IMG/VR virus record: IMGVR_UViG_3300010885_046520
Coordinates: 1-64,000 of that record
Strand: one strand, 5' to 3'
DNA length: 64,000 nucleotides
From: an uncultured virus (IMG/VR IMGVR_UViG_3300010885_046520)
Taxonomy: Duplodnaviria > Heunggongvirae > Uroviricota > Caudoviricetes
Shown: positions 2 to 26,000 of the stretch, one piece after another
How the letters are laid out: each line of letters begins with the position of its first letter
Position numbering within the stretch: the stretch's first letter is position 1
The notes under the pieces: model-generated
What the model was told of the DNA's origin: nothing
Database searches by the model: none
What the model saw: only the letters and a program-made list of their open reading frames with translations
Position numbers and translations under genes: made by a program

Positions 2-778
2 TATTATACTTCTCAGTTCACTCATCATGTTTGGGAACCAAAAGATCATAAAGATTGTCATGCATGGATTAATAAAGCTTTAGAATATAATAAGGGTATG
101 TTTGATCCTAGGAATAGACATATAGTTCAGCCAGAACAACGCTTTGATCTTGAGATTAAGAAACCTTGGTCATCATACCGATATGAAACCAAAGATGGAG
201 TCCTTGAAGGAAACCTTGCTATTAAAGGAACTATTGATCTTATTACTAAGGTAAATGATAACACCCTAGAAGTCATCGATTGGAAAACAGGACGAAGACT
301 AGATTGGGCCACAGGAGAAGAAAAAACTCTAGAGAAACTTCAAAACGATCCCCAATTAAGGATATATCATTATGCAATTCAACATATGTATCCAGAGATC
401 GAACATGTAATGATATCTATTAATTTCATCAATGATGGTGGGGCATTTACTATTTGTTTTGATAAAACAGATTTATACAAAACAGAAATCATGTTGAAAC
501 AAAAATTTGAGACTATAAAGAATACTCAAAAACCTCAGTTAAATAAAAGCTGGAAATGTAGTAAGCTTTGCCACTTTGGAAAAAGCACATTTGCTAATAG
601 CCCAATAGAGCCGCTAACAGAATACAGAGACGGTCAACTAACAGCCAAAAACCAATGCATGACCAAATGTGAGCAAGTTAAACATGACATAGACACTACC
701 GGAATGAAAGCAGTCATTGACAAGTATCAGGCTCCCGGTTATAGTATAGGTCACTACAAGGCACCCGGCACCGTATAA
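2..778 (+). CDS. PD-(D/E)XK nuclease superfamily protein (Cas4/RecB-like), 5'-truncated by the window edge
   Basis: The frame is open from position 2 (YYTSQFTHH...) into ORF 98..778. Motifs: E-Q-R-F, G-T-I-D-L, V-I-D-W-K-T-G, Q-L-R-I-Y and a C-terminal C-x3-C-H-F Cys cluster typical of Cas4/AddB-like nucleases. Confidence 0.8.
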   Translation, partial: YYTSQFTHHVWEPKDHKDCHAWINKALEYNKGMFDPRNRHIVQPEQRFDLEIKKPWSSYRYETKDGVLEGNLAIKGTIDLITKVNDNTLEVIDWKTGRRLDWATGEEKTLEKLQNDPQLRIYHYAIQHMYPEIEHVMISINFINDGGAFTICFDKTDLYKTEIMLKQKFETIKNTQKPQLNKSWKCSKLCHFGKSTFANSPIEPLTEYRDGQLTAKNQCMTKCEQVKHDIDTTGMKAVIDKYQAPGYSIGHYKAPGTV

Positions 779-818
779 CATTTTTGGTTATAACAACGAA
801 ATAAGGAGAAAATTAGAT

Positions 819-863
819 ATGGACATGACTAGAGGGTATGTGCCTCTGCATGTCCATTCTTAG
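819..863 (+). CDS. dnaE: N-terminal 14-codon segment of DnaE (MDMTRGYVPLHVHS*), carrying the PHP HxH motif
   Basis: SD AAGGAG at 803-808 and ATG at 819. It encodes YVPLHVHS, the canonical first PHP strand of DnaE, then TAG at 861-863. The motif continues as MYSLLDG from 871 in the +1 frame. Confidence 0.75.
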   Translation: MDMTRGYVPLHVHS

Positions 864-870
864 GTGGGCT

Positions 871-2712
871 ATGTACTCACTTTTGGATGGACTATCGCAG
901 CCAAGAACTATTGCTGAACGATGTCAAGAAATCGGAGCAACTTCTTGTGCATTAACTGATCATGGTAATATTGCTGGAGCAGTTAAGTTTTATACGGAAA
1001 TGAAAAAGAAGGGAATTAAGCCTATCCTGGGATGTGAGGTTTATCTTTGTGATCAAGATCCTAAGATTAAAACAAAAGAAAACAAAGACTTAACCCACTT
1101 TGTGATTCTAGCTAAGAATTATGAGGGGTGGAAGAGTCTTATTAGAATTGTCTCCGAATCCAATCAGCCAGATCATTTTTATCATAAGCCAAGACTAGAT
1201 ATAAACACTCTTGCACAATATTGCAATAATAATATTATTGGATTTTGTGGTCATGCTGGATCTTATTTAGCAGATAGGATTACTAATAATAATCAATTGA
1301 TCGGTGATTGGAGAAATGTTGGGATTGACCAAATTGGTAAACTAAAGGATGTTTTTGGTACAGAGAATTTCTTTCTAGAAGCACAATTAATGGATTCGGT
1401 CAATTCTCCTATTCAGACACTTTTGACTGGTGCTATGAGAGATTTGGCCAAAATTACTAATACCAAAATCATTTCTACGCCAGACGCTCATTATTGCCGC
1501 AAGGAGGACGCTGTAGATCAAAGGGTGCTTCTCTGTAATAATTTAAAAACAACCTTCCCAGAGATCAGCAGGAAGATCAGTAACGATGAGGAGGTGCCTC
1601 TTGGTTGCTTTTTTACATCTGACAACTTCCATATCCTATCTCCAGAAGAAATGGGTCATTTTCATACAGAAGAAGAGATGGAAAATACCAAGATAGTAGA
1701 TGAATTATGTGAAAACTATAATATCTTAGATAAACCACATTTACCTCCATTTTCTTGTCCTGACGGAGCTAATCCAGATGAATACCTAAGGCAATTATGT
1801 CGTAATGGTTGGAGAGATAAAATTGCTAATAATATAGATAAAGATACCCAAGAAGATTATGTGAATCGAATAAAGTATGAATTAGAGGTTCTACAAGGGG
1901 CTGATCTTTCTAGTTACTTTTTAATTGTACAAGATATTGTTAACTATGTCAGGAAAAACAACTGGCTTCCTGGGCCGGGAAGAGGAAGTGCGGCTGGTTG
2001 TCTAGTCTCTTACCTGATTGGTATTACTAGTATTGATCCTATTAAGTATGGTTTATTATTTGACAGATTTTATAATGCTGGACGAAATAGTAAAGACCAT
2101 ATCTCTATGCCTGATATTGACGTAGACGTACCTATTAATAAGAGAGAAAATGTAATCGAATATATTAAGCAGTGTTATGGGGCTGATAAGGTTTCTCAAA
2201 TGATTACATTTAATACTATTAAGGGTCGTGGTGCTATTAAGGATGTATTAAGAGTTTATGGTAATATATCATTTGATGAAATGAATAAGATCACTAAAAG
2301 TATTCCAGATGAAGCTAAAATTGCCGACGATCTTCAAGAAATGAAAGAAGAGACTGGGGAAGCATCTATTATTCGGTGGGCATTAGAAAATGAGCCAGAT
2401 AAACTGAAAGAATGGTGCTATATAGATGAAAAAAATGAATTACAAGGACCGCTTGCCAAAAGATTTGAACAGGCTATTAGATTAGAAGGAACTAAGTCTA
2501 ATCAGTCCAAACATGCGGCTGGTATTGCTATTAGTTCTAAACCATTAAATACATTGTGTCCTATGGTGTACGATTCAAAAAATGATCAGCTTATAGCTGG
2601 TATGGAAATGCAAGATCTAGAAGCGTTAGGCATTATCAAATTTGATATTCTTGGCGTGGCAATGTTAGATAAAATTATGACTATCCAAGACATCTTATCA
2701 AAAGGAGATTAA
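871..2712 (+). CDS. dnaE: DNA polymerase III alpha subunit, N-terminal half (PHP + palm)
   Basis: Motifs YSLLDG, ALTDHG, KPILGCE, PDAHY, GPGRGSAAG, PDIDVD (catalytic aspartates), HAAG and KFDILG. The ORF track start at 838 (MCLCMSILRWA) is not DnaE-like. Confidence 0.95.
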   Translation: MYSLLDGLSQPRTIAERCQEIGATSCALTDHGNIAGAVKFYTEMKKKGIKPILGCEVYLCDQDPKIKTKENKDLTHFVILAKNYEGWKSLIRIVSESNQPDHFYHKPRLDINTLAQYCNNNIIGFCGHAGSYLADRITNNNQLIGDWRNVGIDQIGKLKDVFGTENFFLEAQLMDSVNSPIQTLLTGAMRDLAKITNTKIISTPDAHYCRKEDAVDQRVLLCNNLKTTFPEISRKISNDEEVPLGCFFTSDNFHILSPEEMGHFHTEEEMENTKIVDELCENYNILDKPHLPPFSCPDGANPDEYLRQLCRNGWRDKIANNIDKDTQEDYVNRIKYELEVLQGADLSSYFLIVQDIVNYVRKNNWLPGPGRGSAAGCLVSYLIGITSIDPIKYGLLFDRFYNAGRNSKDHISMPDIDVDVPINKRENVIEYIKQCYGADKVSQMITFNTIKGRGAIKDVLRVYGNISFDEMNKITKSIPDEAKIADDLQEMKEETGEASIIRWALENEPDKLKEWCYIDEKNELQGPLAKRFEQAIRLEGTKSNQSKHAAGIAISSKPLNTLCPMVYDSKNDQLIAGMEMQDLEALGIIKFDILGVAMLDKIMTIQDILSKGD

Positions 2713-2713
2713 T

Positions 2714-2911
2714 ATGGCAATGCAAAAGTTTATGGATATAGCAATCGGGACTGTTTTTAAGCATGAAGGTAATGAGTATCGAAAAATCCCAGAAGAAAGA
2801 ATCAGTTGCTGTTCGGCCATTAATGCTCAAGGAGTACATAATGCCCAGCAAAGAATTCAAGTTTTGCCACTAGTAGAAGTCGAAGTCCTAGGAGATAACA
2901 CTCAAGCATGA
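2714..2911 (+). CDS. small hypothetical protein (65 aa)
   Basis: SD AAGGAG upstream; tightly packed between dnaE-N and the exonuclease (ATGA overlap). Confidence 0.7.
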   Translation: MAMQKFMDIAIGTVFKHEGNEYRKIPEERISCCSAINAQGVHNAQQRIQVLPLVEVEVLGDNTQA

Positions 2912-3609
2912 TCAACTATAATAAAATTTGCGTTTTCGATTTTGAAACAGATGGTTCTGATCCTAAGTCTTGTAGTCCAGTACAAATTGCAGCCATAATT
3001 ATTGATCCATTAAAACTGGAAATTGTTCCCAATTCTGAATTCAACATCTTTTTTAAACCAGAGGTATTGGCAAATGATGAACAATATCAATATACTACAG
3101 ACATTTTAGATTTTCATGCCAAGGTAAGAGGTTCTTCTAAAGAAGCTATTCTAGAAGAATGGAAGAAGTACCCTGCTCAAGATCAGTCTTGGAAATTGTT
3201 TACAAACTATCTAACAATGCATCATACCAGATCCAGCAAAAAGAGCCAGTTTAGTGCTCCTATTGCTGCTGGTTACAATATCAATAGATTTGACTTGCCA
3301 ATTATTGATAGGTTGAGTCGTAAATATGGTAATACGAATAAGGAAGAAAGAAGCGATATTTTTTATCCAAGAGACGTATTAGATATTATGAACCTAGTCT
3401 TCTATTGGTTTGAAAACAATGGAGATCTCAAAAATCTTTCCCTGGACACTCTTAGAGATTATCTGGGCATAAATAAAGAGGGTGCTCATGATGCTCTAAA
3501 AGATGTTAAAGATTGTGCAGAAATTCTGATTCGTTTTATGAGACTACATCGTAACCTAGGAAATAAGATTAAGTTTAAGGACTCATTTCAGTCACCATCA
3601 CATGTCTAA
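2908..3609 (+). CDS. DEDDh 3'-5' exonuclease (DnaQ/epsilon-like)
   Basis: ExoI VFDFETDG, ExoII AGYNINRFD, ExoIII AHDALKD; located between the two dnaE halves. Confidence 0.9.
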   Translation: MINYNKICVFDFETDGSDPKSCSPVQIAAIIIDPLKLEIVPNSEFNIFFKPEVLANDEQYQYTTDILDFHAKVRGSSKEAILEEWKKYPAQDQSWKLFTNYLTMHHTRSSKKSQFSAPIAAGYNINRFDLPIIDRLSRKYGNTNKEERSDIFYPRDVLDIMNLVFYWFENNGDLKNLSLDTLRDYLGINKEGAHDALKDVKDCAEILIRFMRLHRNLGNKIKFKDSFQSPSHV

Positions 3610-5233
3610 AAAATTTCAATACAGTTGCGGATGTTCTTTTGACATTATATCTGAACATGACGATAAGGATAGAATGACTCTTAAATTTAATCCTAAAATA
3701 GAAGAGATTAGTTTAGAGTGTCAAAAAACTTGGGACCTAATTTCAGACGGAAATACTAAAGGGTGTTTCCAGTTGGAGTCTAGGCTTGGTAAGTCTATGG
3801 CTAAAAAACTAAAGCCAGAAAATATCGAACAGCTATCTGCCTTAATTAGTATTATGAGGCCGGGTTGTCTTGAAGCTTTTAGAGATGGCAAATCAGTTTC
3901 TAACCATTTTATAGATAAAAAGAATGGCCAGGAATCTGTAGATTATTATCATCCCTCTTTAGAGCCTATTCTAAAGGGAACATATGGTGAAATGATTTAC
4001 CAAGAACAGGCTATGGAAATTGCTAAAATCGTAGCTGGTTTTGATCTTCAAGAAGCAGACATGTTAAGAAAAGCTATTGGTAAGAAAAAACCAGAAGAGA
4101 TGGCTAAGATTAAGATTAAATTTTTAGAAGGCACAGAAAAAGTTGGTACAGTAGCTACTTCTCAAGCAGAAGAAATTTTCGGCTGGATTGAAAAGTCCCA
4201 GAGATATTCTTTTAATAAATCCCACGCTGTTAGTTATGCTATTAATAGTTATTTATCAGCTTATACCAAGGCTCATTTTCCCAAAATATTTTTTGCTGCA
4301 TATTTAAGATTTGCAAAAGATAAAATTGATCCTAAGGCAGAAATTAAAGAATTGGTACAAAACGCTAATGAAATGGATGTTCCTGTTTGTATACCAGATA
4401 TTAGAAACTTAAATCAACTATTCATTCTTAAGAATAACAAGATTTACTTTGGACTAACAGACATCAAGGGTTTTGGACAGTCCGTTTTTGACAAATTAGT
4501 TAAACTCAAAGAAGATAAGAAGCTAGATTTTGATACCATGAACTGGATAGAAATGCTGACTACGGTTTTGATCAATATCAACTCTACATCTGCTAAAGCA
4601 TTAATCCAAAGTGGAGCAATGTCATATTTGGGTAAGAATAGAGTGGCTATGTTATTCGAATTTGGTTTAGTCTCAGAATTAACCAAGAAGGAATCAGACT
4701 TCATTATAGCTAATCTCTATAAATATAAATCAATAGGAGATGCTCTTCATGATCTATATCATAATGGAAAATCCAATAAGAATAGAAAAGCAATTATTCT
4801 AGATTTAATTAATAGCTATAATAAGCCTCCATATTCTTTAGAAGATAATCCAGATTGGATTGCTGATGCGGAAGATGCATTTTTAGGGTGTAGTATAACC
4901 TGTTCTAAAGTTGATATGTATGATATTACTATGACTAATACAACCTGTAAAGACTTTAAAAACACCACGCTTAAAGATAATATTCTCTTGTGTGGAGAAA
5001 TTGAGAGTGTGGGTGTTACTAAAACTAAATCTGGCAAGACACCGGGTCAAGAAATGGCATTTGTTACTATGAGCGATGGCACAGGAGTAATAGATTCTGT
5101 TGTTTTCTTTCCAGAAGCCTATAAGGCTTATCGAAATATTTTATTTGATGGCAATGTGATCATAGTAAAAGGTAATAGAGCCAAGTCTGGCGATTCACTA
5201 ATTGTAGAAAAGACGTATATTCCTAAAACTTGA
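3602..5233 (+). CDS. dnaE: DNA polymerase III alpha subunit, C-terminal half (fingers, HhH, OB fold)
   Basis: Motifs GCFQLES, RPG, TYGEMIYQEQ, ADMLRKAIGKK, YSFNKSH, GLTDIKGFG and the OB fold KSG..MAFVTMSD.TG. Confidence 0.95.
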   Translation: MSKKFQYSCGCSFDIISEHDDKDRMTLKFNPKIEEISLECQKTWDLISDGNTKGCFQLESRLGKSMAKKLKPENIEQLSALISIMRPGCLEAFRDGKSVSNHFIDKKNGQESVDYYHPSLEPILKGTYGEMIYQEQAMEIAKIVAGFDLQEADMLRKAIGKKKPEEMAKIKIKFLEGTEKVGTVATSQAEEIFGWIEKSQRYSFNKSHAVSYAINSYLSAYTKAHFPKIFFAAYLRFAKDKIDPKAEIKELVQNANEMDVPVCIPDIRNLNQLFILKNNKIYFGLTDIKGFGQSVFDKLVKLKEDKKLDFDTMNWIEMLTTVLININSTSAKALIQSGAMSYLGKNRVAMLFEFGLVSELTKKESDFIIANLYKYKSIGDALHDLYHNGKSNKNRKAIILDLINSYNKPPYSLEDNPDWIADAEDAFLGCSITCSKVDMYDITMTNTTCKDFKNTTLKDNILLCGEIESVGVTKTKSGKTPGQEMAFVTMSDGTGVIDSVVFFPEAYKAYRNILFDGNVIIVKGNRAKSGDSLIVEKTYIPKT

Positions 5234-15055: not shown

Positions 15056-18000
15056 TTAGTCTTTTGTCCTTAGATCTGTTTTTTTACCCGCCCTACAACA
15101 ATAATTGGCATCATCACACACTGGAATATCGGTATTATAACATTGAGGAGTACTATCGCAATCTGCTGTTTTATATATTTCTGTAGTATTAATTGATCCT
15201 GTAGGACAAGATCCTTTAATTCTATCACATTTTGCCCTTATTACATCTGTTTTAAAAGTATCTTGTACTGTTTTTGGTCTGCGATATCTATAAGTATAAT
15301 AAGCTACTGTATATGTTGCTGTTAATTTTTCTACAGCGGGAGTATCAGTTAAAGTTGCTCTATACGTTATAGCAGGATAGCTAATATCTTTATAAAATAC
15401 TCCGGCACAATCCTCTGGTACAACTCCTTCTACAATATCGCCCACATTTAATGACCCATTATTATTACATGGAGCAATATTTCTAAAATTTTGTTCCATC
15501 TGATTTTTCCATATTTCCTTCATTCTGTTCTGAGCCACCGTATTAGATGCCGGATAAGTTATGGGAATATCACATCCTGCAACAATTGCTGTTGGATAAC
15601 GCATATTGCCTTTTACACAAATTTCTGGATCTCCCATCTTGAATGATATGCACGTACTCCAAGGAAAAGAATCTGGAGCCTCTCTACCGCATAAGCCCAT
15701 ACCGCCATTGGTATAAGTCTGAGGGCCGCAAGCAACAGCAGAACAGCCATTACAAAGTCCACAACCAATAGTCTGTACACCCATAGCGACAGGACCATCA
15801 ACATTCTTATCCGGACTGCTCAAGAAATATCCCAGCATACAAGTTCTGGTTTCGGTTATAATCTCCCATTGTTGTATTTGTGGAGGCATTGTGATTTTAT
15901 TAGGCTCAACCCCACAATTATCACAACTGCTAGATATGGAATCTGAAACTGTAAAGCTATCATCTGGTACTGTGACTTTTATAATAGGACAATTATTCCT
16001 AATTCTATGAGATACACAATGGGGTGGCCCACCAGGTAAATTAATAGTCAGTGAATTATTATCATAATTGATAGAACATAAGTTTGTAGGACAAAGTGGA
16101 TTATACGGAGTTGTTGGAGATGTAGTAACAGCATCATAAATATACCATGCTCCAGGAGCTCCGGTGTCGCATTCTATCCAAACACATTCTTCTACTGCTT
16201 CTCCTCCAATTTCTCCAATCGGACCAGCTGTTTCACCATTACCACTATAACCTCTACAAGAAGGTAGAGGGATTGTTTTACGAGCATCTGAAGTTCCATA
16301 TTTGATTTTTCTTTTGTGTCCTTTTAATGCTATTTGATATCTACAATATTCAAAATTATAATCAAATGGTTGATAATCATATTGTAAAGGACCGTCCGCA
16401 GCATCACATGCGCATCTTCCATCAGCTGAGTTCTGACAATATCCATACTCCCAATCTATACAATCGCAATGATCTTCAGTGTCCCCCATAGCCGGAGGAA
16501 AAGATCTTCCGTTTATAGCACTATAGTATAGGTTATCAGTTAAAGGATTCTTATAGCTATCTGTAAAACAAGTACCACAAGATGGTTCAGAAACTGATCT
16601 TAGACTACCAATACCCTGAGGATGCTGAATAATTCTTCCTCCTATAGCATTTTCTAAGCTTCTTCCTATTAATAGTCCATTAATACTACCTTCTGCGTAG
16701 CAACCAGAAAAAACTCCTCTTGAGTATCTTCCATATTTTATTGTTCTTGATGTGCTTGTTAATTGTTTACAATCAGGACCCATCAGGTCTTTTACTGAAT
16801 ATCCAATACCTAGGTTAGTACATAAAAATTCTGGGGTATCAAGTATTATAGTACCTAAACATCCGTTTGATGGCCTATATTGTACTACATATCCAGGAGG
16901 AGACCCATAGTCTGGATTGCACGTGGGATCAGGCATACCTGGTCTCCATGAACCAAGATTACATGATTTCTCACTACCCCAGTATGGCAGTTTGAGATCC
17001 TCTCTTGTTACACCATCACATTTAAAGGTATTATACAATACTCCTTTTGGATGTGCTGACATAAAGCTCACACTATGAGAAGCTATTTCTTGACATTGTG
17101 TTAAAAGAGTATATTTTGTAGTGCTCGTATCACTTAATTTTTGATCAGATACTGCTAAACTATGACTAGTAACATATTCTGTGTGAATAACACTCTCTAT
17201 AGTTTGACCATCTATATCTACTACTATTTTAATTTTACCATCACCACTTCTGACTGAAATAGTCATATTCTTATTTCCAATAGTGACTGATACAGATTTG
17301 CCTACTATCAGTTTACCTTGAATAGATAATGATCCATTAATTTTTCTATTAGGAGGAATCGCTGTTTTATCTAAATTGTATGGAATATTTTTGTAAATAT
17401 CTTTTGCTTCTATTTTCGGATCGGTATATTTAATTAAATCGTTAAATTTAATAGTTTGAGTGGTGTGGTCATCTATTGTTTTTAAATTAATTTTTTGTTT
17501 TTGTCCGTACCTCATACGAAATAAAATTTCATTAGCAAAGATATCTGTTTTTTTAACTATTTCTGTATGGTCATCTACTATACTATCTCTCATAATAGAT
17601 TGATATTCTTCATTTAGTACAGAGATCCTACTGATAGTTGGTCTTGGAGAAATATCTTTATTACAGTTAGTAGCTGGATATAGTGTATTATTAGGATTTA
17701 ATTCTAGTCTTTGTATATAATATAGTTGGTGATTTCCTATAGGATTATATATTCCAGCATCATAAGATATAATATATGGAATATCATTAAGCTCCTGAGG
17801 AAGAGATTTCATCTTAGGCATTTGAATATGGTATATACCACTAAAAGATACAGCCCCAATAGTATTAATGCCACAAGCTGCGCTACCACATCCTTCTACT
17901 CTATCTGTGTCCCCATAAACTGGCATTTTAATAAAGGGGGTGCCTGTGTATGGTGTTTTTTGAAAATGACCAAAATCAAATGTTATCGGAGGGAAAGTTA

Positions 18001-21000
18001 CTGCTGTTGTTGGTGTCGCAGGAGTAAAAACACTACGTATACCTTCTCTATTAATAACACTATTAGATTCTACAGAATATAATTGAAAAGGAACATCATC
18101 TACTCGTAATGTATTTGTATAAAAAATTTGATCTGGTTTAATAGTTAAAGATGATTTTAATTCATTTCGTTTTTGTATATCTATAAAAAATAATTCTTTG
18201 TCATCAGGATTTAAATACTTTGGTTCCCATATATGTCCAGCATCTAGATTTTTATATATCCCACTAATTTGAACAACCCCAGAATAAATATAGGATGAAT
18301 TTTGTAGTAAACTTTTTACTAATATCTCTAAGTCTTTGATTAATAAACCTTTTAGTATCGGTTTAAAATTTTCTCTTACTGAATTCTCATATTCTCCATA
18401 ATTTGGCACAAAATTAATATCCATAAATGGCAAATAGTTATTATAGTCTCTAAAAGTTTTTCTAACTATAGAATTATTTCCATCTCCAATATTGTATTTT
18501 TGATGAATAACATATGAAGTTTGACCATTATACTTTATTAAAACTTCTTTTAGATTGTCTTGTTGATCTTTAATCTTAAAATTATAATTGTATAGATTAT
18601 TATTGGCGTTATTAATAATTGTTTTGAAAAACAGATTTTTATACAAACTATCTGGATAGAAGTCGTGTAAATATCCGGTATTATAAATATATTCTCCCAA
18701 TTCATTAATTAATTTACCATCAAAATCAATCAAGTCTCCCCATTTGGTGCTGTATATAGGATTTCTTAATAGTGGATCATTTTCACTTCTTAAAGCTTCT
18801 GGTATATTTTGATAAATAATGAGAGAATCGACACCTAATTTAACGTCTTCTGCTTGATCAATAATGTCTGCTAGTTCGTTAATATTTTCAAGATTTATTT
18901 GTGGTATTTTTCCTAAGAAAGTGAAATCTAAAACACCAATACTATATTTTACATTAGCATCTAATACAAATTCTGTATATATTCTAAGATATTTATCATG
19001 AATATTATCGTTGTAATTTAATTTATTTCCATTTTTATCAACATATATTGAATAAATACTTTTTTCTATAATTTTACCAATGTATGACAGCTTTGAATTT
19101 TCTTTGGAAGTTATCAGGACTTTTTGATCACAGTCTTTTTTAGTATTATGAACATAACCAACCATATTTTTACGATTATAATCAATTTGTAAATCAGTAA
19201 ATTTAGTATTTAAACGACTAGTATTATTTTCAGTCTTTTCAGCTACTAAAAAATAAGGTCGAGATCCCTCTATAATTATTTTTTTTGGATCTCTACCTCT
19301 AGTGAATTTAGTATTAACAATTGGATAATAGGTATTAGTTCTTTGCGTATTAAATAGATCATATGTAAAATTGTAAAAGAAATTAAAGTCTAGGTGTTCT
19401 TTGGTAGATACTGGAAGAATTGGTCCTGATAAATTTGTGGTACTATCTTTTTTGGTATATTCAAACAAATATGGTTGACCAATGTACTTTTTTTCGTCTT
19501 TAAAATATCCAAAAATATTAGGATCATTATATTCCCACCATTGATTGTCTATTTTTAAATAAAGTCTAATTTTTTTATGATTATTTAATTCTGATATTTG
19601 TCGTAATGTTTCTTTAAGTTTATCGTTCATTTCTCCAATAAGCATTGTTCCGTCTTTAAATTTTTCTTCTTTTCTAAATACTTCTTTATCGTAATCGATA
19701 TATGAAGTTAAATTACCACTATCTCTAACAACTGATGTTTTATCAGTTTTATCCCCACCATAGATTAATCCAGTATTAGGATGAAAAAATCCTCTCTTTA
19801 GAGTTCCCATTTGTACTGGAGCAGGAACGGCGAAATTCAACATTTGTTTACGTGGAACTCTCTCAAACTTTACCGCTAGGTCGATACTTTGATTTCCTAG
19901 TGTTCCAAATACTGTATTAGTTGAACAAAAATTACCAACTGGAGGATATAGAACCAGATCATTACCTACTAAAGCTTCTAAATAAGGATTTACTAGAGTG
20001 GCCGTAACAGACGAAGATGATCCTCCTCCTTTACTAATAAAAACCTTTTTTTGTTTATCATAGACGATAGTATCATTTAAAGTCACGCGAGTTGCAAATC
20101 TTTGATATCCTATATTCGGAGAAGAGGTCCACTCTAAATTTCCATCCTCATCAAAAGTTTGAGAATAACTTCTGGGTTTAAATAAATCTACATTCTCAAT
20201 AACTTCTGCCCAAACATCAGCATGGATAGTATTATAAGAAGGTAAAGAAAAATTCCATTCTGTTTTTACATAATTAGGGAAATTAACAGTTACTGATTGA
20301 GAGCATCCGTATGGTTGTTCTGGGTCTATTTTTTCAGATAGAGGATCTATGAAATCTCCTACGTCTGGATGACCTGGTATTCTGATATCTCCTAAAAGTT
20401 TAGATATGTCCTTTTTTGAATATCCACCATAAGATGCAAAAACTGGACCATGGTCTGTTGATAAACTTGGAGTAAATAATAGTGGTTCATTGCTATAGGT
20501 AATGGATCCACCGTCTGTGCTACAAACATGAGGATAGTCTGTTATGGGACTCATAGAAAAACATTGACACTCATTTTTGTTAGGAAAACCCAAGCATTCA
20601 CGAGTATCCTGATTAAAAGCTCTCAATTTTTCTATATTTAAACCATATATTTTAATGCCAACATCTTTAGTAGTAAAAGTTATACGACATTTGCCGTCCG
20701 TTAACCAAAGAGTTCCTTGATCAAAAACTGTACTATTATTGGCTCCAAAAATTTTACTATCATAGTAAACACCACCCTGATAATGAAATGCGGCTTTATC
20801 TATACGAGGATTCATTATAGCAGCATTATATTTTCTGGTATGATATAGACTTTCATCATAAATAGTTCTTGCTGGTCTTGTTCCAACAACGAATCCTTCG
20901 CTATTATTAGCAAATCTTGCAGATGGCTCATCGCAGAAACTAGCGTCTCCTTGAAAGCCGGAACAAAGAATTGGGTTTAATTTAAGGGCTAATTTATAAG

Positions 21001-23041
21001 ACGATCCATCTCCGCAAGTAGAACATGAAATAGTTTCATCTTTTATGAACGGTCTAGGATAAGTGTTATTAAATATCGAACAACCAGTAAAATATACTAC
21101 TTCTTTAAGGAGATGATCATTGAAAAAAATTCCGGCCATATTCGCTGTTTTTTTTGTTATCGCCCCATCATTACAAGCAGAAGCATATTTTTTTCTATTG
21201 TTAATTTTACTTTCTATTTTTAGATTACCCAATTCAATAGTTTGATTGTATGAAAACTGTTTAGAGATTGTTTGATCCAAGCAGTCTACATTAGACGAAC
21301 AACCTCCTGATAATTTTCGGGTATCATTTATTTTTACTCCCATATCAAAACTTAAATCAATATAGGATTGAGATTTAATGTCTTTTGAAAATTCTAATAT
21401 TGAAGAGGTATTAGGCCCACACCATAAATAAGCACCATATTTATTACCAAGAGTATGTATTAACTCTTCGTTAGAAGAAATAAAATTCATATGACTAACA
21501 GAATCAATCTCGCTAGCAGACATATCTTTATTTAGTTGATCTCTTTGTCTATATTCATTAATAGGGTTAACTGGATTCTGATCTTTATCTAATTGTTTGG
21601 GATCTAAGTCTGTAGTTTTTAATAAATCTACAACAACAGCATCATATTGAGGAGCAGTACTCAGCAAAGCAGCCAACTCAAACTTTTGCAGTTTTGTCAT
21701 TGTATTTGGTCTGGTTCTTGATTCGTTATCTGCATTATCTATACGATCATAAATATCTCTCATTAAAGGATATAGATTAGCAGAAATATATGTGAAAGAT
21801 GAACCAGATGGTATTACGCCTATTACTTCAGAACCTTTAATCACTTTAATTCCTGAAGGACAAGTATTAACTACCGGGGTTTGGTCTTGTGATTCTGGAG
21901 GAGTCATTGATAATGGTTCTGGACCATCATTTTTAGCATAAAAGACATCTCCGGGAGATATATACAAATCTATACCTGGAATTGGCCTCTTATCATTTTT
22001 TCTGTCTTTGTCATAATATCTATACCAGCCAATAATGCCAGAAGAATAATTCCATCTCCAATAAGAAGCTAATTTTTCTGTTTTAACAAAAATGTTATTA
22101 TAGGTATTTTTAGAAAATCCATAGGGGACAGCACTGAAATCTTCAATAGACGGCAAAAGATCACTAATCTCTTCGGTTACTGTAGATTCTGGAAGAGGAT
22201 AAGTATCCGGTACTACCTCAGAGTCTTCTCCCATTAATCCACTAAATATAACATTAGAAGTATATGAAATAACTCCTGATCCTTTATTATTTAACTTGGT
22301 CAGAATAAAATGACCACAAGTACTACCTGTTTGAAGATGTTTTTTATATGCTTTGTTGTGGTCATCTATATTATCATATTGAGAAGTGATAGGATCATAC
22401 GGAATTTCGCCTATTCTAGGTTTAAGTTCCCAGTCTATGCATAGTTGTGGAGTAGATGAATTATTTGTAAAACTATTAAGAGGATTATTGCTACCATTTC
22501 CAAACTTAATAAATTTATCAAATCCTAGTCCAGAACCAACAGCTGGAAACTGTTTCATATGTTTAAAATCGTAAAATTGATCCAAATATTTCTGGTTCAA
22601 AATAGGCACTTTTGGTAAATAATCATCTCTTTCCATTCTAATGTCACACGCACCATTGCAACAATTAGAAGATAAAGATGTTGACTTATTTCCATTAGTA
22701 TCTTTTAATTTCCAGGCAATTTTATGATTTGTGTTGTTGCTTAATGAAGAACAGTAAGAACAACGAAAAGAATCAATTGATTCAATTTCATCATAAGATG
22801 TTATTACGGGGGAACAACGACAAGGATCAAAAGATGTATTTAAAGTAGTATCTGGTTGAGATAATAAATCCCCATATTTAATTGTAGAGTGTTTATTGTA
22901 AACAACAAGAGGTCTCCACAGCCCACTAGTTTTTGTATCAAATGGAGGAAGAAGAGTTGTTAGTGATGTTTTATCAATAATAGCAGTACTAAAATCTGCA
23001 TCAGATAGAAAAGACTTATTAAATATGGAACAGCAACTCAT
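15056..23041 (-). CDS. very large (2661 aa) putative virion/distal tail protein, Cys-rich termini
   Basis: Long open frame downstream of the TMP; no recognisable enzymatic motif. Function inferred from position. Confidence 0.6.
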   Translation of the reverse strand: MSCCSIFNKSFLSDADFSTAIIDKTSLTTLLPPFDTKTSGLWRPLVVYNKHSTIKYGDLLSQPDTTLNTSFDPCRCSPVITSYDEIESIDSFRCSYCSSLSNNTNHKIAWKLKDTNGNKSTSLSSNCCNGACDIRMERDDYLPKVPILNQKYLDQFYDFKHMKQFPAVGSGLGFDKFIKFGNGSNNPLNSFTNNSSTPQLCIDWELKPRIGEIPYDPITSQYDNIDDHNKAYKKHLQTGSTCGHFILTKLNNKGSGVISYTSNVIFSGLMGEDSEVVPDTYPLPESTVTEEISDLLPSIEDFSAVPYGFSKNTYNNIFVKTEKLASYWRWNYSSGIIGWYRYYDKDRKNDKRPIPGIDLYISPGDVFYAKNDGPEPLSMTPPESQDQTPVVNTCPSGIKVIKGSEVIGVIPSGSSFTYISANLYPLMRDIYDRIDNADNESRTRPNTMTKLQKFELAALLSTAPQYDAVVVDLLKTTDLDPKQLDKDQNPVNPINEYRQRDQLNKDMSASEIDSVSHMNFISSNEELIHTLGNKYGAYLWCGPNTSSILEFSKDIKSQSYIDLSFDMGVKINDTRKLSGGCSSNVDCLDQTISKQFSYNQTIELGNLKIESKINNRKKYASACNDGAITKKTANMAGIFFNDHLLKEVVYFTGCSIFNNTYPRPFIKDETISCSTCGDGSSYKLALKLNPILCSGFQGDASFCDEPSARFANNSEGFVVGTRPARTIYDESLYHTRKYNAAIMNPRIDKAAFHYQGGVYYDSKIFGANNSTVFDQGTLWLTDGKCRITFTTKDVGIKIYGLNIEKLRAFNQDTRECLGFPNKNECQCFSMSPITDYPHVCSTDGGSITYSNEPLLFTPSLSTDHGPVFASYGGYSKKDISKLLGDIRIPGHPDVGDFIDPLSEKIDPEQPYGCSQSVTVNFPNYVKTEWNFSLPSYNTIHADVWAEVIENVDLFKPRSYSQTFDEDGNLEWTSSPNIGYQRFATRVTLNDTIVYDKQKKVFISKGGGSSSSVTATLVNPYLEALVGNDLVLYPPVGNFCSTNTVFGTLGNQSIDLAVKFERVPRKQMLNFAVPAPVQMGTLKRGFFHPNTGLIYGGDKTDKTSVVRDSGNLTSYIDYDKEVFRKEEKFKDGTMLIGEMNDKLKETLRQISELNNHKKIRLYLKIDNQWWEYNDPNIFGYFKDEKKYIGQPYLFEYTKKDSTTNLSGPILPVSTKEHLDFNFFYNFTYDLFNTQRTNTYYPIVNTKFTRGRDPKKIIIEGSRPYFLVAEKTENNTSRLNTKFTDLQIDYNRKNMVGYVHNTKKDCDQKVLITSKENSKLSYIGKIIEKSIYSIYVDKNGNKLNYNDNIHDKYLRIYTEFVLDANVKYSIGVLDFTFLGKIPQINLENINELADIIDQAEDVKLGVDSLIIYQNIPEALRSENDPLLRNPIYSTKWGDLIDFDGKLINELGEYIYNTGYLHDFYPDSLYKNLFFKTIINNANNNLYNYNFKIKDQQDNLKEVLIKYNGQTSYVIHQKYNIGDGNNSIVRKTFRDYNNYLPFMDINFVPNYGEYENSVRENFKPILKGLLIKDLEILVKSLLQNSSYIYSGVVQISGIYKNLDAGHIWEPKYLNPDDKELFFIDIQKRNELKSSLTIKPDQIFYTNTLRVDDVPFQLYSVESNSVINREGIRSVFTPATPTTAVTFPPITFDFGHFQKTPYTGTPFIKMPVYGDTDRVEGCGSAACGINTIGAVSFSGIYHIQMPKMKSLPQELNDIPYIISYDAGIYNPIGNHQLYYIQRLELNPNNTLYPATNCNKDISPRPTISRISVLNEEYQSIMRDSIVDDHTEIVKKTDIFANEILFRMRYGQKQKINLKTIDDHTTQTIKFNDLIKYTDPKIEAKDIYKNIPYNLDKTAIPPNRKINGSLSIQGKLIVGKSVSVTIGNKNMTISVRSGDGKIKIVVDIDGQTIESVIHTEYVTSHSLAVSDQKLSDTSTTKYTLLTQCQEIASHSVSFMSAHPKGVLYNTFKCDGVTREDLKLPYWGSEKSCNLGSWRPGMPDPTCNPDYGSPPGYVVQYRPSNGCLGTIILDTPEFLCTNLGIGYSVKDLMGPDCKQLTSTSRTIKYGRYSRGVFSGCYAEGSINGLLIGRSLENAIGGRIIQHPQGIGSLRSVSEPSCGTCFTDSYKNPLTDNLYYSAINGRSFPPAMGDTEDHCDCIDWEYGYCQNSADGRCACDAADGPLQYDYQPFDYNFEYCRYQIALKGHKRKIKYGTSDARKTIPLPSCRGYSGNGETAGPIGEIGGEAVEECVWIECDTGAPGAWYIYDAVTTSPTTPYNPLCPTNLCSINYDNNSLTINLPGGPPHCVSHRIRNNCPIIKVTVPDDSFTVSDSISSSCDNCGVEPNKITMPPQIQQWEIITETRTCMLGYFLSSPDKNVDGPVAMGVQTIGCGLCNGCSAVACGPQTYTNGGMGLCGREAPDSFPWSTCISFKMGDPEICVKGNMRYPTAIVAGCDIPITYPASNTVAQNRMKEIWKNQMEQNFRNIAPCNNNGSLNVGDIVEGVVPEDCAGVFYKDISYPAITYRATLTDTPAVEKLTATYTVAYYTYRYRRPKTVQDTFKTDVIRAKCDRIKGSCPTGSINTTEIYKTADCDSTPQCYNTDIPVCDDANYCCRAGKKTDLRTKD

Positions 23042-23051
23042 TTTTTATTTC

Positions 23052-26000
23052 CTAACAATTAACCGATTGTAAAATCCATGACCCATTCATAAAAATAAAC
23101 ATTCCTAAATCATCAGGCACAACATTAAAACCCATCGGATTATTAAAAGTAGTAAGATATGTCTCAGGGGTTATGACTGGTGCCGGAGATGTGGTTGAGC
23201 TTATATTGGCAGCCGTATTAGCTGGATCCTGATAAATATTATAGATAGATACCTGTGTTTCTCCTTTAATGATTCCAGAGGTTATGTAGTGTTTATTATA
23301 AATGGGTTCATAAAATCCATTTTGACCATTATATTTACAATACACAGGAGCATTTCGTGGGACGCAAATAATATTCAGATTATCTTGAACAAATACTAAT
23401 TTTCTTAAACCACTTGGTAATGGATCGTTTGTATATGAATCTTCTATAACAGCTCCTCTAGAGGGTTGTCTGTTAACTAAATCAGTTTCTAATACTACCC
23501 AAATTGGTTTATAATTGGCTCCCACAGTCCATACTCCAGCATTAGCATCCCATCTTAAATCAATAGGTCCAACTGGCCAAGTACTAGGTAATTGTCCCCA
23601 ACCTTTATAAAACTGATGCTCCTTGTATGGCTCTGTCCATGTACCATCGGGTTTTTGGCTTTGATTTTTGTATATGATTTGTTTGGTTTTTGTATCTTTA
23701 ACTATTTCTCCATCAATAACTTTTGGTTCTCCAGAAGCATTAGGAACAGGATATCCTTCTAGATCATAACCCCAAGCATGGACCATTAAAGGTCCGCGTA
23801 AACCAAAATATCTCATATTATTAGCTGGGGTGATTCCTGGAGCCACCCCCCGTTTGCTACAAAACTCCATATAATTTTGATCATAGTCTAAATAGCTACG
23901 CTCTATATTTTTTGCATATGCTGGTTTTAAACCATTAGCCCCTTCTGGTATTGTTAATCCTTGACCTATCAGATCTATACTATGACCAGTTTTATCAGTA
24001 AATTGTCTATTTTGAAAACTACTAAATTCCCCAACAGACATTAATACAGGATTTAGTGTTGCATAATTAATAATTGGATTACCACTTAATCCATTAGGTA
24101 GTCCTGAAGAATTTTTACCGATCAAAGTCAAATCATCACCACTAGCTAAAATATATGGAGGATTAGTTTCTTTTGGAGATGCTGAAACCAAAGCTTTTTT
24201 CTTTTTATCTTCTATAGTTTCACAAAATGGACATTCTACTTCTTTTTCGATTGCAGCATTAGTCATTGTGCTAACATTAACAGTAGTCAAAGTATTATCA
24301 GGATCTAAATATTTATATTTATATTTTGCAGTTCCTTGACAAAATGGACATCCTGGCCTGGGATACTTGGTAATACTAAAAGTGGATCCGTGTGGAGTTG
24401 GATAAAATGAAATGGGAGATAGTATTCCGTCCAAACTCATCATCGATTTATTTTCATATCCTTTTTGAAATTCTGTAGGTAATTCTTGAACGTCCTGTAA
24501 AGAAACATTGGTTGATTCCCTTATCATATTTATAGGATCATATGAAATGTTTCTCGTTACAAAAGGCATCTTAGACCAACCAGGAGAATAATTTAAATCT
24601 TTGTATATATCGGTGATGGTACTATCTGGACGAACAATAGTAGCATTTGAACCAGTTAAAATTTCAAATGGACTCCATCTTAAAACCTTAGGAGTATTGT
24701 CTTCGTTGTGTATATTAAAAAGATTTCCAAAATATCTTTGATTACTTAGTGTTGGACCATATTGTGGACCATTATTTAATGACCCTAATACTCCCATTAA
24801 GCTGGTACTTATTTCTTTTCTTCTTTTGAGTGATTCTTGACCTATTTCTTTTATTCTATCTGCATTTTCTTTGTTATAAAAACCCAATTTTCTAGTATAG
24901 GTTCTAAAATTATAATTAGTAGTAATACCTCCTTCACCAACTTGAACTTGAATACTACTAATAATAGGACCTCCAAATTTTTGATTTTCACCTATTAGAG
25001 CATCTCCTAAATTAAAAGCTGTTCCTGAAAGACTTGTTAACAGTGCTCCGGGAACTTGAATAGAACCTTGTTCAGTGATTTGTTGATAGTTAACGTCATC
25101 TTTAATTCTTGCCATAACAGCAGCGTCTAAAGCATCCATACCACCATAATTCCAAGGAACTAATCCAGCATCATGTTGAACTTTTACGCTTCCTACAAGA
25201 TTATTAACAGATGATGGTACATCTAAAACTGTTTTATCAAAGATTGCTTCTTCTATTAGTCCAGGATGATTGGTCCATGGTCCATATGTAGCCATTGAAC
25301 TTTCAAGTGGTATAGCAGCAAAATATGGGTAAGCTGCTTTTTCTAAGACATGCATATTATTTGATGACAAGTTTGAATCTTGACCATTATTGTCCAAGAA
25401 TACTTCATTTTGTAGACCAGGATATAAAAATGATGCCATGACACCTCTTGGGTCCCAAGTTAAAGTATAAGGATATCTACGCAAACCTCCATTAACTGTT
25501 GAATTTGTTCCAACGTCCGCTCCATTTCTTACAGGAGATGGTATAGTAGAATCTTTCAGCATTTTCAGTAAAAAATCTTGACTTATAATATGTCCTACTT
25601 CTTTATCCGCTATATTTCTACCATTACCCATTTTAACTGGTGAAGATATTTGTACTACTACTCTAGCGTCAGCGTCTGGCTCAATAAAAACAAAATCTTT
25701 TTCACAATTAGCTTTAACATATGTTTTACCAATTTGTTTACTAACTTTACTATTTGCTCCTGTACTAGATCCTATAGGAAATCCGTGAGCTGTGCGAAAA
25801 GCCATAGAATTTGCAAATCCACCAGTATATATGTCAATATATTCTTCTGGAGGCAAAGAATGACTGATAGAGCTATAATAATTATTATTTTCATCTACGG
25901 CATCAGTTGCTCTACGACTATTTAGTAAAAATGTCCAATTGGTAACTAAATGAGATTTTCCATAATTACTAGCAGGAATGTTACTAGCATTGAAAATATA

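What the first reader, a model, noticed from the sequence alone, without database searches (positions are those of the whole stretch)
819..900. Exact 10-nt insertion splitting the DnaE PHP motif: translational bypass, +1 frameshift or 14-aa trans-peptide
Seen: SD AAGGAG then ATG819 reads MDMTRGYVPLHVHS, followed by TAGGTGGGCT (861-870), then ATG TAC TCA CTT TTG GAT GGA (MYSLLDG). Removing exactly these 10 nt gives LHVHSMYSLLDG, with canonical DnaE spacing. The insert starts with a stop codon right after TCT and ends in GCT, a 2/3 match to TCT as a landing codon. It can fold with the upstream bases into a G:U-rich hairpin (847-875) whose apex spans TCT-TAG. It also contains AGGTG, an SD-like element 4 nt before ATG871. 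Other PHP metal ligands (LLD, TDH, GCE, THF, DAH) look intact. Established: T4 gene 60 bypassing uses a take-off codon, a stop and a stem-loop. Inference, three alternatives: ribosome hopping over 10 nt; a +1 shift at TCT-TAG giving HS-RWA-MYS; or stop/restart in which the HxH strand is a separate peptide or the PHP is deliberately crippled. Each could tune polymerase amount or proofreading.
Basis: partly seen in the sequence, partly recalled or inferred. Interest (0 to 1): 0.85.

Follow-up and report, generated by a model that had tools for sequence, protein, structure and literature searches.

The report
Ribosome-hop cassette in phage dnaE
A 10-base, stop-containing insert near the start of this phage's DNA polymerase gene looks like a mobile cassette, sometimes carrying a homing endonuclease, that ribosomes probably skip over, much as in T4 gene 60.

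Summary
ATG819 opens 14 codons ending in HVHS. TAG861 follows, the 10 bases 861-870 break the frame, and ATG871 continues the DnaE PHP motif. Contigs from three studies cross the site without an indel.

It is not a private lesion. 26 of 79 related phage loci carry a stop-containing gap at this same codon. Pattern scans gave 34 distinct variants in 74 loci, 6 to 12 nt long and in all three frame classes. Every gap starts with TAA or TAG straight after a Ser TCY codon. Every gap ends in NCN, and 25 of 34 end in a Ser TCN codon.

Two covarying stems flank the take-off codon, and a third stem stacks below one of them. The module is scattered over the DnaE tree, needing at least 8 changes. In 15 of 74 loci it sits next to an HNH-type endonuclease ORF or a remnant of one.

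Best reading: a homing-endonuclease-linked translational bypass cassette, analogous to T4 mobA/gene 60 but in dnaE with a far shorter gap.

Caveat: the window's own variant lands on GCT (2 of 3 bases matched) and resumes at ATG, so reinitiation at ATG871 is not excluded here. Nothing has been tested experimentally.

The parts
2..778 (+). Upstream PD-(D/E)XK nuclease gene (context). It is present in both gapped and plain relatives.
   Evidence: Pfam PF12705, E 5.5e-12; PHROG exonuclease families; gene order compared.
800..818 (+). Remnant of the 3' end of the lost HNH endonuclease ORF. It now supplies the Shine-Dalgarno AAGGAG (803-808) for the dnaE start.
   Evidence: These 19 nt are identical to the end of the endonuclease ORF in L117/L063 (alignment A1). 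Full ORFs and 80-, 51- and 36-aa remnants occupy this position in relatives.
819..860 (+). First coding segment of dnaE: 14 codons, MDMTRGYVPLHVHS, carrying the PHP HxH motif.
   Evidence: YxPLHVHS is invariant in 74 of 74 cassette loci, with synonymous variation at Tyr, Pro, Leu and His.
819..827 (+). Stem 1, 5' arm (ATGGACATG; includes the start codon).
   Evidence: Pairs with 849-857. 99.2% of 477 cells are paired. Pair 38-64 is GC 30 / AU 20 / GU 3; pair 32-70 is AU 52 / GC 1. Duplex energy -11.8 kcal/mol.
849..857 (+). Stem 1, 3' arm (CATGTCCAT; the His-Val-His codons), directly 5' of the take-off codon.
   Evidence: The same positions in plain relatives pair at only 4.9 of 9.
858..860 (+). 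Proposed take-off codon TCT (Ser14).
   Evidence: TCY in 34 of 34 variants, though the search patterns required it. It also holds in all 26 gapped loci found through the protein search.
861..870 (+). Coding gap TAGGTGGGCT: stop TAG 861-863, spacer, and proposed landing codon GCT 868-870.
   Evidence: The stop is TAA in 19 and TAG in 15 of 34 variants. The landing codon has C at position 2 in 34 of 34 and is Ser TCN in 25 of 34.
862..882 (+). Stem 2 hairpin: AGGTGGG (862-868) pairs with CTCACTT (876-882), with loop 869-875. It starts inside the stop codon and holds the landing and resume codons at its top.
   Evidence: -5.7 kcal/mol in the window. A hairpin forms in 36 of 37 distinct regions. 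Compensatory changes occur at the Ser and Leu third positions. New variant L366 fits the pattern.
852..892 (+). Stem 3: GTCCATTC (852-859) pairs with GGATGGAC (885-892). It stacks under stem 2 to form a long take-off stem-loop with the take-off codon on its 5' side, and it competes with stem 1 for GTCCAT.
   Evidence: RNAalifold consensus of 8 pairs with no both-sided changes. It is part of the MFE fold of 800-900: -30 kcal/mol, z -2.4. Duplex energy -9.8 kcal/mol.
871..2712 (+). Second coding segment of dnaE part 1 (rest of PHP plus the palm domain), beginning at the resume codon ATG871.
   Evidence: Pfam PHP matches profile positions 8-162; DNA_pol3_alpha E 1.4e-73.
2908..3609 (+). DnaQ/RNase T-like exonuclease gene lying between the two dnaE halves (context).
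   Evidence: PF00929, E 1.7e-13.
3602..5233 (+). dnaE part 2 (fingers, HhH and OB domains) (context).
   Evidence: PF17657, E 2.1e-47; PF14579; PF01336.

Best explanation
The 10 nt at 861-870 are the coding gap of a programmed translational bypass.

Proposed mechanism (inferred). Ribosomes start at ATG819 behind a strong SD and make MDMTRGYVPLHVHS. They then pause with peptidyl-tRNA-Ser on UCU858-860 and UAG in the A site. A hairpin that begins inside the stop codon (stem 2, the top of a longer take-off stem-loop) hinders termination. Re-pairing of the just-translated GUCCAU segment with the start-codon region (stem 1) as it leaves the ribosome pulls the mRNA forward. The tRNA re-pairs 10 nt downstream on GCU868-870, and decoding resumes at AUG871. 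The product has the normal H-x-H-S-x-Y-S-L-L-D-G spacing of the PHP motif.

Origin (inferred by analogy with T4 mobA/gene 60). The gap is part of a small mobile cassette: an HNH-type homing endonuclease gene, a new SD and start, about 14 replacement codons, and the gap. The cassette has moved repeatedly among related freshwater phages. The gap probably disrupts the endonuclease's target in dnaE. In this window the endonuclease gene has been lost, leaving about 19 nt.

Shown here: the anatomy, the covariation, the distribution on the tree and the endonuclease linkage. Inferred: the hop itself, the roles of the stems, and the endonuclease target.
For: (1) Recurrence at one codon.
- 26 of 79 relatives found by protein similarity are interrupted exactly after HVHS; 53 are not.
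- Pattern scans gave 74 dnaE loci with 34 distinct take-off/gap/resume variants.
- The 80 loci fetched from the metagenome scan held 20 dnaE-type loci and 3 further variants.

(2) One mechanism must serve all frames. Gap lengths by variant are 6 (1), 8 (3), 9 (5), 10 (11), 11 (13) and 12 (1). Removing each gap restores the canonical spacing.

(3) Take-off and landing.
- A stop codon follows TCY in 34 of 34 variants.
- The last gap codon is TCN in 25 of 34, with ACT in 5, GCT in 3 and GCC in 1.
- Position 2 is C in 34 of 34, and no earlier TCN triplet occurs in any gap.
- All 3 new metagenome variants land on TCT.

(4) Both flanks are under protein-level selection.
- YxPLHVHS is invariant, with synonymous changes including 5 different Leu codons.
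- Downstream changes that maintain stem 2 are confined to the third positions of the Ser and Leu codons.
- The seven downstream PHP ligands are invariant in 26 gapped and 51 plain forms.

(5) No way to restart in most variants. 21 of 34 have no in-frame ATG, GTG or TTG between the stop and the Tyr codon.

(6) RNA structure.
- Stem 1 is 99.2% paired, with GC 30 / AU 20 / GU 3 at one pair. 0 of 500 shuffles reach its covariation score or percent paired, and partners slid by 1-3 columns pair at only 24-47%.
- Stem 2 forms in 36 of 37 distinct regions. The pair at the Ser third position is TA 23 / AT 4 / CG 3. Mean MFE is -5.8 kcal/mol for cognate arms and -2.7 for non-cognate arms.
- The cassette region folds at -26.7 kcal/mol, against -5.9 for the same region of plain forms.

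(7) Mobility.
- The gapped state needs 9 changes on the DnaE tree, and well-supported branches force at least 8.
- Extra similarity among gapped forms ends within about 10 codons after the resume codon.

(8) Endonuclease linkage.
- An ORF of 236-253 aa matches PHROG endonuclease/HNH families (1e-22, 3e-19).
- It sits directly upstream in 7 of 74 loci, and remnants of 80, 51 or 36 aa in 8 more.
- Its stop overlaps the dnaE start out of frame.
- None of the 53 plain loci has a match at that junction.

(9) This feature list matches that given for gene 60/MobA in the introduction and passages read of bioRxiv 10.1101/2022.08.31.505936.
Against: - There is no experimental or RNA evidence.
- The window's own landing codon is GCT, which matches only 2 of 3 bases.
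- 9 of 34 variants have a non-Ser landing codon, and 8 of those 9 have an in-frame ATG or GTG. Only 5 of the 25 Ser-landing variants do. Some lineages, including this one, may therefore reinitiate instead of hopping, or as well.
- The nascent chain at take-off is only 13-15 residues. In gene 60 a longer nascent peptide signal matters. Short peptidyl-tRNAs are prone to drop-off (recalled).
- Stem 3 shows no both-sided changes. RNAalifold on the MAFFT alignment recovered only stem 3, with a covariation term of -0.03.
- The stem 2 pair counts come from each sequence's own MFE fold, which leans towards pairing.
- My search patterns fixed the 3' arm of stem 1, the take-off codon and the stop.
- Conservation of the HVH codons is confounded with stem 1.
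- The endonuclease's catalytic residues, activity and target were not tested. Pfam gave no HNH hit and the PDB sequence search gave none.
Confidence: 0.68

Rival explanations
1. Termination and reinitiation in this phage. Ribosomes release the 14-residue peptide at TAG861 and restart at ATG871, 7 nt downstream, helped by the SD-like AGGTG. This would make a 613-aa DnaE part 1 that lacks the HxH strand. The peptide would be discarded or would complement in trans.
For: The window has ATG871 with AGGTG (862-866) 4 nt upstream. Its landing codon matches the take-off codon at only 2 of 3 bases. 8 of the 9 non-Ser-landing variants have an in-frame start codon.
Against: - 21 of 34 variants have no in-frame start codon, yet share the same architecture.
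- YxPL in the upstream segment stays under protein-level selection in the ATG-resume lineages too.
- The seven other PHP ligands are invariant, so the metal site looks intact and needs HxH.
- Met at this position is also the residue in the nearest plain relatives, for example L008 and L058. The ATG therefore need not be an adaptation for restarting.
- The SD-like run is base-paired in stem 2.
Confidence: 0.17
2. A +1 ribosomal frameshift at TCT-TAG, as in prfB. The product would carry three extra residues (Arg-Trp-Ala) between Ser14 and Met.
For: The window's gap length is 10 nt (+1 class). A stop sits in the A site. The +1 frame is open from 838.
Against: - Only 11 of 34 variants are in the +1 class. 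16 need +2/-1, and 7 have the stop in frame.
- The inserted residues would differ in number and identity between variants and would break the conserved PHP spacing.
- There is no SD-like element 3 nt upstream of the shift codon.
Confidence: 0.05
3. A tolerated scar of a selfish element. The gap simply knocks out the N-terminal strand, or the whole part 1. It persists only because the endonuclease cassette drives itself, or because another polymerase substitutes.
For: The gap is linked to a homing-endonuclease cassette with a scattered distribution.
Against: - 59 of 74 loci have lost the endonuclease but keep the gap with intact signals.
- Compensatory changes maintain stems 1 and 2.
- The landing codon rule holds across 34 variants, and in the 3 new ones.
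- Both coding flanks and all PHP ligands are conserved.
- The body of dnaE shows no decay: the ORF is 624 aa and open in all loci.
Confidence: 0.05
4. An assembly or sequencing artefact.
For: None found.
Against: The identical gap is present in 7 IMG/VR contigs. Contigs from 3 studies cross the site without an indel. Dozens of diverged variants exist at the same site.
Confidence: 0.01

Closest known systems
Phage T4 gene 60 50-nt translational bypass with the mobA homing-endonuclease cassette (Bonocora et al. 2011, seen only in a reference list; Manning & Atkins, bioRxiv 10.1101/2022.08.31.505936: abstract, introduction and passages read)
   Same: - A stop codon directly follows the take-off codon.
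- The take-off and landing codons match.
- A take-off stem-loop carries the take-off codon on its 5' side.
- A separate 5' stem-loop forms from already-translated sequence.
- A purine-rich, SD-like run lies in the gap.
- The cassette carries replacement N-terminal codons.
- An HNH-type endonuclease ORF overlaps the downstream start out of frame.
- Insertion has been repeated, and the endonuclease has decayed in many carriers.
   Different: - The host gene is dnaE (PHP motif), not a topoisomerase subunit.
- The gap is 6-12 nt, not 50 nt (or 20 nt in one clade).
- The codons are Ser UCY/UCN, not Gly GGA.
- Take-off happens at codon 13-15, so no long nascent-peptide signal is possible.
- The landing codon lies inside the take-off hairpin.
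- The 5' stem shares its 3' arm with the take-off stem.
- No sequence homology to the gene 60 cassette was sought or shown.
- The bypass is unproven here.
Short tRNA 'hops' over a stop or slow codon in E. coli (Weiss et al. 1987; O'Connor et al. 1989; cited, 38 passages, papers themselves not read)
   Same: Peptidyl-tRNA moves a few nucleotides to a matching codon across a stop. Re-pairing is independent of frame.
   Different: Those are low-level or synthetic events. Here the site is conserved, flanked by covarying structures, and sits in an essential gene.
Magnusiomyces capitatus mitochondrial byps elements (as summarised)
   Same: Short mobile inserts inside essential genes that must be bypassed for a functional product.
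   Different: Those are 27-55 nt long, number 81 copies across many genes, have a missing-tRNA sense codon in the A site, and have no endonuclease link. Here there is one site in one gene.
Streptomyces phage terminase candidate bypass (PMC10732093; passages read)
   Same: A phage gene with take-off and landing codons, an internal SD and local structures that bring the landing codon close.
   Different: That case is triggered by the rare UUA codon, is regulatory, sits in a terminase gene, and has junction-peptide support from expression in E. coli.
Fractured genes with split inteins and free-standing endonucleases, including DnaE (PMC2677866; passages read)
   Same: Homing endonucleases invade dnaE in environmental phage-like sequences.
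   Different: Those are repaired by protein trans-splicing. Here there is no room for an intein: part 1 ends 18 aa after the palm domain, and the interruption is only 6-12 nt.

Membership tests
Programmed translational bypass (gene 60 type) | A non-coding gap interrupts an ORF that is continuous in relatives, and both flanks are under protein-level selection. | tested here: met
   53 of 79 relatives are continuous. The flanks are conserved with synonymous variation.
Programmed translational bypass (gene 60 type) | The landing codon matches the take-off codon, directly 5' of the resume codon. | tested here: inconclusive
   For the family, 25 of 34 variants have TCY going to TCN, and all 34 have C at position 2; the 3 new variants land on TCT. 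For the window, TCT goes to GCT, only 2 of 3 bases.
Programmed translational bypass (gene 60 type) | A stop or slow-to-decode codon lies immediately 3' of the take-off codon. | tested here: met
   TAA in 19 and TAG in 15 of 34 variants; TAG861 in the window. The search patterns required TAR, but the 26 gapped loci from the protein search show it too.
Programmed translational bypass (gene 60 type) | A take-off stem-loop has the take-off codon on its 5' side, and its top part can form at the A site. | tested here: met
   Predicted only. Stems 3 and 2 appear in the MFE fold. Stem 2 forms in 36 of 37 regions with compensatory changes. Stem 3 has no covariation.
Programmed translational bypass (gene 60 type) | A 5' stem-loop is formed by sequence upstream of the take-off site. 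| tested here: met
   Stem 1 is 9 bp and 99.2% paired, with two pairs changed on both sides. It is absent from plain forms.
Programmed translational bypass (gene 60 type) | A nascent-peptide signal acts in the exit tunnel. | not testable with these tools
   The nascent chain is only 13-15 aa. Its conserved part is also the PHP motif.
Programmed translational bypass (gene 60 type) | An SD-like element in the gap lies upstream of the landing codon. | tested here: inconclusive
   G/A-rich runs (GGTG, GTGAG, AGAGA, GGGA) lie 0-3 nt before the landing codon in most variants. They are also the 5' arm of stem 2.
Programmed translational bypass (gene 60 type) | A junction peptide or reporter read-out shows one protein made from the two segments. 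| not testable with these tools
   No expression data. No RNA run was listed.
Homing-endonuclease mobile cassette (mobA-like logic) | A free-standing endonuclease gene lies adjacent to the variant site, with a patchy distribution and decay series. | tested here: met
   7 full ORFs and 8 remnants in 74 gapped loci. None of 53 plain loci has one at that junction. The window keeps a 19-nt remnant. The tree needs at least 8 changes.
Homing-endonuclease mobile cassette (mobA-like logic) | The endonuclease cuts the gap-less allele, and the gap protects against cutting. | not testable with these tools
   Inferred from the T4 precedent only.
Homing-endonuclease mobile cassette (mobA-like logic) | The endonuclease is homologous to T4 MobA. 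| not tested
   Only PHROG HNH and endonuclease VII profile hits and HNH-annotated phage relatives at 30-42% identity.
prfB-type +1 programmed frameshift | A fixed +1 frame relation between the two ORFs across relatives. | tested here: not met
   Gap length mod 3 is 0, 1 and 2 in 7, 11 and 16 variants.
Termination-reinitiation (translational coupling) | A start codon for the downstream ORF lies at or near the stop. | tested here: inconclusive
   The window has ATG871. Across the family only 13 of 34 variants have an in-frame ATG, GTG or TTG.
DnaE (Pol III alpha) PHP domain | The PHP profile is complete, including the N-terminal HxH and the other metal ligands. | tested here: met
   It is complete only if both segments are joined. 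The profile matches from position 8 in the ATG871 ORF and from position 2 in the plain L008. D, H, E, H, H, D and H are invariant.

The most novel reading that the evidence does not exclude
This is a second, independently evolved family of homing-endonuclease-borne translational bypass cassettes. It has the shortest programmed coding gaps known (6-12 nt) and sits in the replicative polymerase gene of uncultured freshwater phages. Ribosomes hop from Ser UCY over a stop to a codon held in the apical part of an A-site hairpin, driven by refolding of a stem that includes the start codon. The 37 natural variants form a ready-made mutational series.
Probability: 0.6. Interest if true: 0.9.

Novelty: new variant of a known kind. 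Interest (0 to 1): 0.85.

Why it matters
Efficient natural translational bypassing is known from very few systems. A 2022 preprint on gene 60 states that no similar bypassing had been reported in other phages.

My searches found no report of a dnaE case. They covered Creative Commons PubMed Central papers and bioRxiv only.

A compact cassette with 6-12 nt gaps, two covarying stems and dozens of natural variants would give a minimal system for studying:
- what makes a ribosome let go and re-land;
- how much codon match landing needs;
- how homing endonucleases can create recoding signals.

Practically, gene callers will annotate these dnaE genes as N-terminally truncated or broken, as the ORF list does here (start 838 or 871).

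Tried and rejected
- Megablast of 600-3000 against cultured phages gave no match. tblastn of DnaE part 1 found only relatives below 35% identity, so the host is unknown.
- Pfam gave no HNH hit for the endonuclease ORF at E <= 0.01, only weak HTH and terminase_5 hits. The PDB sequence search gave 0 hits at E <= 1.
- No tRNA genes in the window or in the remaining 12 kb of the record. A phage suppressor tRNA or special tRNA-Ser is therefore not seen, but the record is about 50% complete.
- No RNA holder was listed among the sequencing runs.
- Earlier notes of this scan: none.
- RNAalifold on the MAFFT alignment recovered only stem 3, not stems 1 or 2. The gap columns are not aligned by structure.
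- A stem-1-plus-take-off pattern found the cassette only in dnaE: 73 of 73 hits lay in the same dnaE contigs already recovered by the earlier pattern scans. There is no sign of it in other genes.
- Split inteins at the dnaE part 1 / part 2 split were rejected, because there is no spare sequence at the ends.
- L064 and L065 were dropped from the tree because my motif filter missed them. Both are plain forms.
Full report
**Observation**

One search confirms every coordinate. AAGGAG lies at 803-808. ATG819 opens 14 codons (MDMTRGYVPLHVHS) that end at TAG861. The 10 nt TAGGTGGGCT occupy 861-870. ATG871 then continues with MYSLLDG in a frame that stays open to 2712.

The product is DnaE part 1 (PHP plus palm). 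The gene is split: a 65-aa ORF and a DnaQ-like exonuclease gene precede part 2, which runs 3602-5233. Pfam's PHP profile matches the ATG871 ORF only from profile position 8. An uninterrupted relative matches from position 2. So the 14 upstream codons encode the missing HxH strand.

Contigs from runs of three studies cross the site with no indel. The window is a 76-kb IMG/VR virus record from freshwater-type metagenomes.

**Relatives**

A protein-based scan of viral contigs kept 79 loci at 67-100% identity. Of these, 53 are uninterrupted. They start MKNY.PLH.HS, and their start codon overlaps the end of the upstream nuclease gene.

The other 26 carry a stop-containing gap at exactly the same codon. 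In these, the N-terminus is MD(M/V)...Y.PLHVHS and is preceded by its own SD.

Three pattern scans extended the set.
- Two viral-contig scans and one metagenome scan gave 74 dnaE loci with 34 distinct take-off/gap/resume variants.
- The 80 loci fetched from the metagenome scan held 20 dnaE-type loci and added 3 further variants.

**Why a hop**

Gap lengths by variant are 6 (1), 8 (3), 9 (5), 10 (11), 11 (13) and 12 (1), which covers all three frame classes. Deleting each gap restores the canonical H-x-H-S-x-[Y/F]-S-L-L-D-G spacing.

- Each gap begins with TAA (19 variants) or TAG (15) directly after Ser TCY.
- Each gap ends with NCN: TCT 13, TCA 9, TCC 3, ACT 5, GCT 3, GCC 1.
- No other TCN triplet occurs earlier in any gap.
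- The three new metagenome variants all end in TCT.

A +1 shift fits only 11 of 34 variants. Readthrough fits only 7.

Restarting is impossible by canonical start codons in 21 of 34 variants. One example is L083, where TAGAGAATCA is followed by CAT TAT TCT CTA CTG.

Both flanks look translated.
- Tyr, Pro, Leu and His in the upstream segment are invariant, with synonymous variation including five Leu codons.
- Downstream, the changes that keep stem 2 paired are confined to the third positions of the Ser and Leu codons.
- The seven other PHP metal ligands are invariant in 26 gapped and 51 plain proteins.

**RNA structures**

Stem 1 pairs the start-codon region (819-827) with the His-Val-His codons (849-857).
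- 99.2% of 477 cells are paired.
- One pair is GC 30 / AU 20 / GU 3 with none unpaired; another is AU 52 / GC 1.
- 0 of 500 shuffles reach the observed covariation score, and partners slid by 1-3 columns pair at 24-47%.
- The 3' arm was fixed by my search pattern. The 5' arm was free.
- Plain forms pair at 4.9 of 9 at the same positions.

Stem 2 starts at base 1 or 2 of the stop codon and pairs with the Ser and Leu codons of YSLLDG. In the window this is 862-868 with 876-882, at -5.7 kcal/mol.
- It forms in 36 of 37 distinct regions.
- Watson-Crick pair types switch at the Ser third position (TA 23, AT 4, CG 3) and at the Leu third position (AT 25, TA 10).
- Cognate arms fold at -5.8 kcal/mol on average, against -2.7 for arms swapped between classes.
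- A new variant, L366, shows yet another matching arm pair.

Stem 3 (852-859 with 885-892) stacks beneath stem 2 in the MFE fold of 800-900 (-30 kcal/mol, z -2.4). It is the only helix RNAalifold reports, and it has no both-sided changes. It competes with stem 1 for GUCCAU, and the two states are near iso-energetic.

The result is a take-off stem-loop with the take-off codon on its 5' side, plus a 5' stem-loop. This is the arrangement described for gene 60.

**Mobility and the endonuclease**

On a tree of the DnaE body (77 loci), the gapped state needs 9 changes, and well-supported branches force at least 8. Extra nucleotide similarity among gapped forms is confined to the first ~10 codons after the resume codon. 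The 5' module therefore moves as a unit.

In L063 and L067 an extra ORF of 253 and 238 aa lies between the nuclease gene and dnaE.
- It matches PHROG endonuclease, HNH and endonuclease VII families (1e-22 to 1e-13).
- HNH-annotated phage genes match it at 30-42% identity.
- Its stop overlaps the dnaE start, out of frame.

Among the 74 gapped loci, 7 have a full ORF, 8 have C-terminal remnants of 80, 51 or 36 aa, and 59 have none. No plain locus has a match at that junction. The window keeps 19 nt of the ORF's end (800-818), which now supplies the SD.

This mirrors the mobA/gene 60 cassette as described in the preprint: an endonuclease ORF overlapping the N-terminal extension, replacement codons, then the bypass cassette, with repeated insertion and decay.

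**Caveats**

- Nothing here is experimental.
- The window's variant belongs to a derived group. Compared with the ...GGTCT form, ...GGCT has one T fewer, and its landing codon matches at only 2 of 3 bases.
- 8 of the 9 non-Ser-landing variants have an in-frame ATG or GTG. Reinitiation at ATG871 may therefore contribute in this phage.
- A 14-residue nascent chain cannot provide a gene-60-like tunnel signal.
- The stem 2 counts derive from single-sequence folds.
- The endonuclease's activity and target are inferred.

**Verdict**

The hopping alternative is strongly favoured at family level (about 0.7) and moderately favoured for this particular variant. It is a new variant of a known but very rare kind. 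I found no report of it in the searchable literature.

Noticed in passing
window 838-5233: dnaE is split into two ORFs: PHP plus palm (to 2712) and fingers/HhH/OB (3602-5233). A 65-aa ORF with no family hit (2714-2911) and a DnaQ/RNase T-like exonuclease gene (2908-3609) lie between them. The same order occurs in both gapped and plain relatives, and there is no room for split inteins.
   Followed up: partly
window 15056-50810, minus strand: A run of giant ORFs: 5383 aa (34659-50810), 2661 aa (15056-23041), 1856 aa (23052-28622) and 1442 aa (30318-34646). These were not examined.
   Followed up: no
L005:801-1157, L070/L071:1630-1923, L011/L012:1788-1919: Sequences 40-57% identical to the dnaE-linked endonuclease lie at other positions in the replication module of relatives, including plain ones. 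This suggests further homing sites for paralogous endonucleases.
   Followed up: no
L041:2950-3030: A plain (ungapped) relative uses the cassette-type codons GTC CAT TCC directly followed by CAT TAC, but has the plain N-terminus. It could be a precise loss of the gap or a coincidence.
   Followed up: no
window 874 (loose end of a contig in run X1): The same sample holds a second cassette variant (gap TAAGTGGGTCA) on a 48-kb contig. Phages with different variants therefore co-occur.
   Followed up: no
gap variants: Three pairs of variants differ by a single T in the landing codon (..GGTCT/..GGCT..AATCT/..AACT..GATCT/..GACT). Nearly all the shortened forms (8 of the 9 variants whose landing codon is not a Ser codon) have an in-frame ATG or GTG. 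This hints that some lineages are shifting from hopping towards reinitiation.
   Followed up: partly
window 779-818 compared with plain relatives: Plain forms start dnaE at an ATGA overlap with the upstream nuclease gene. The cassette replaces this with a strong AAGGAG SD 10 nt before ATG819, which might compensate for a low bypass yield.
   Followed up: no
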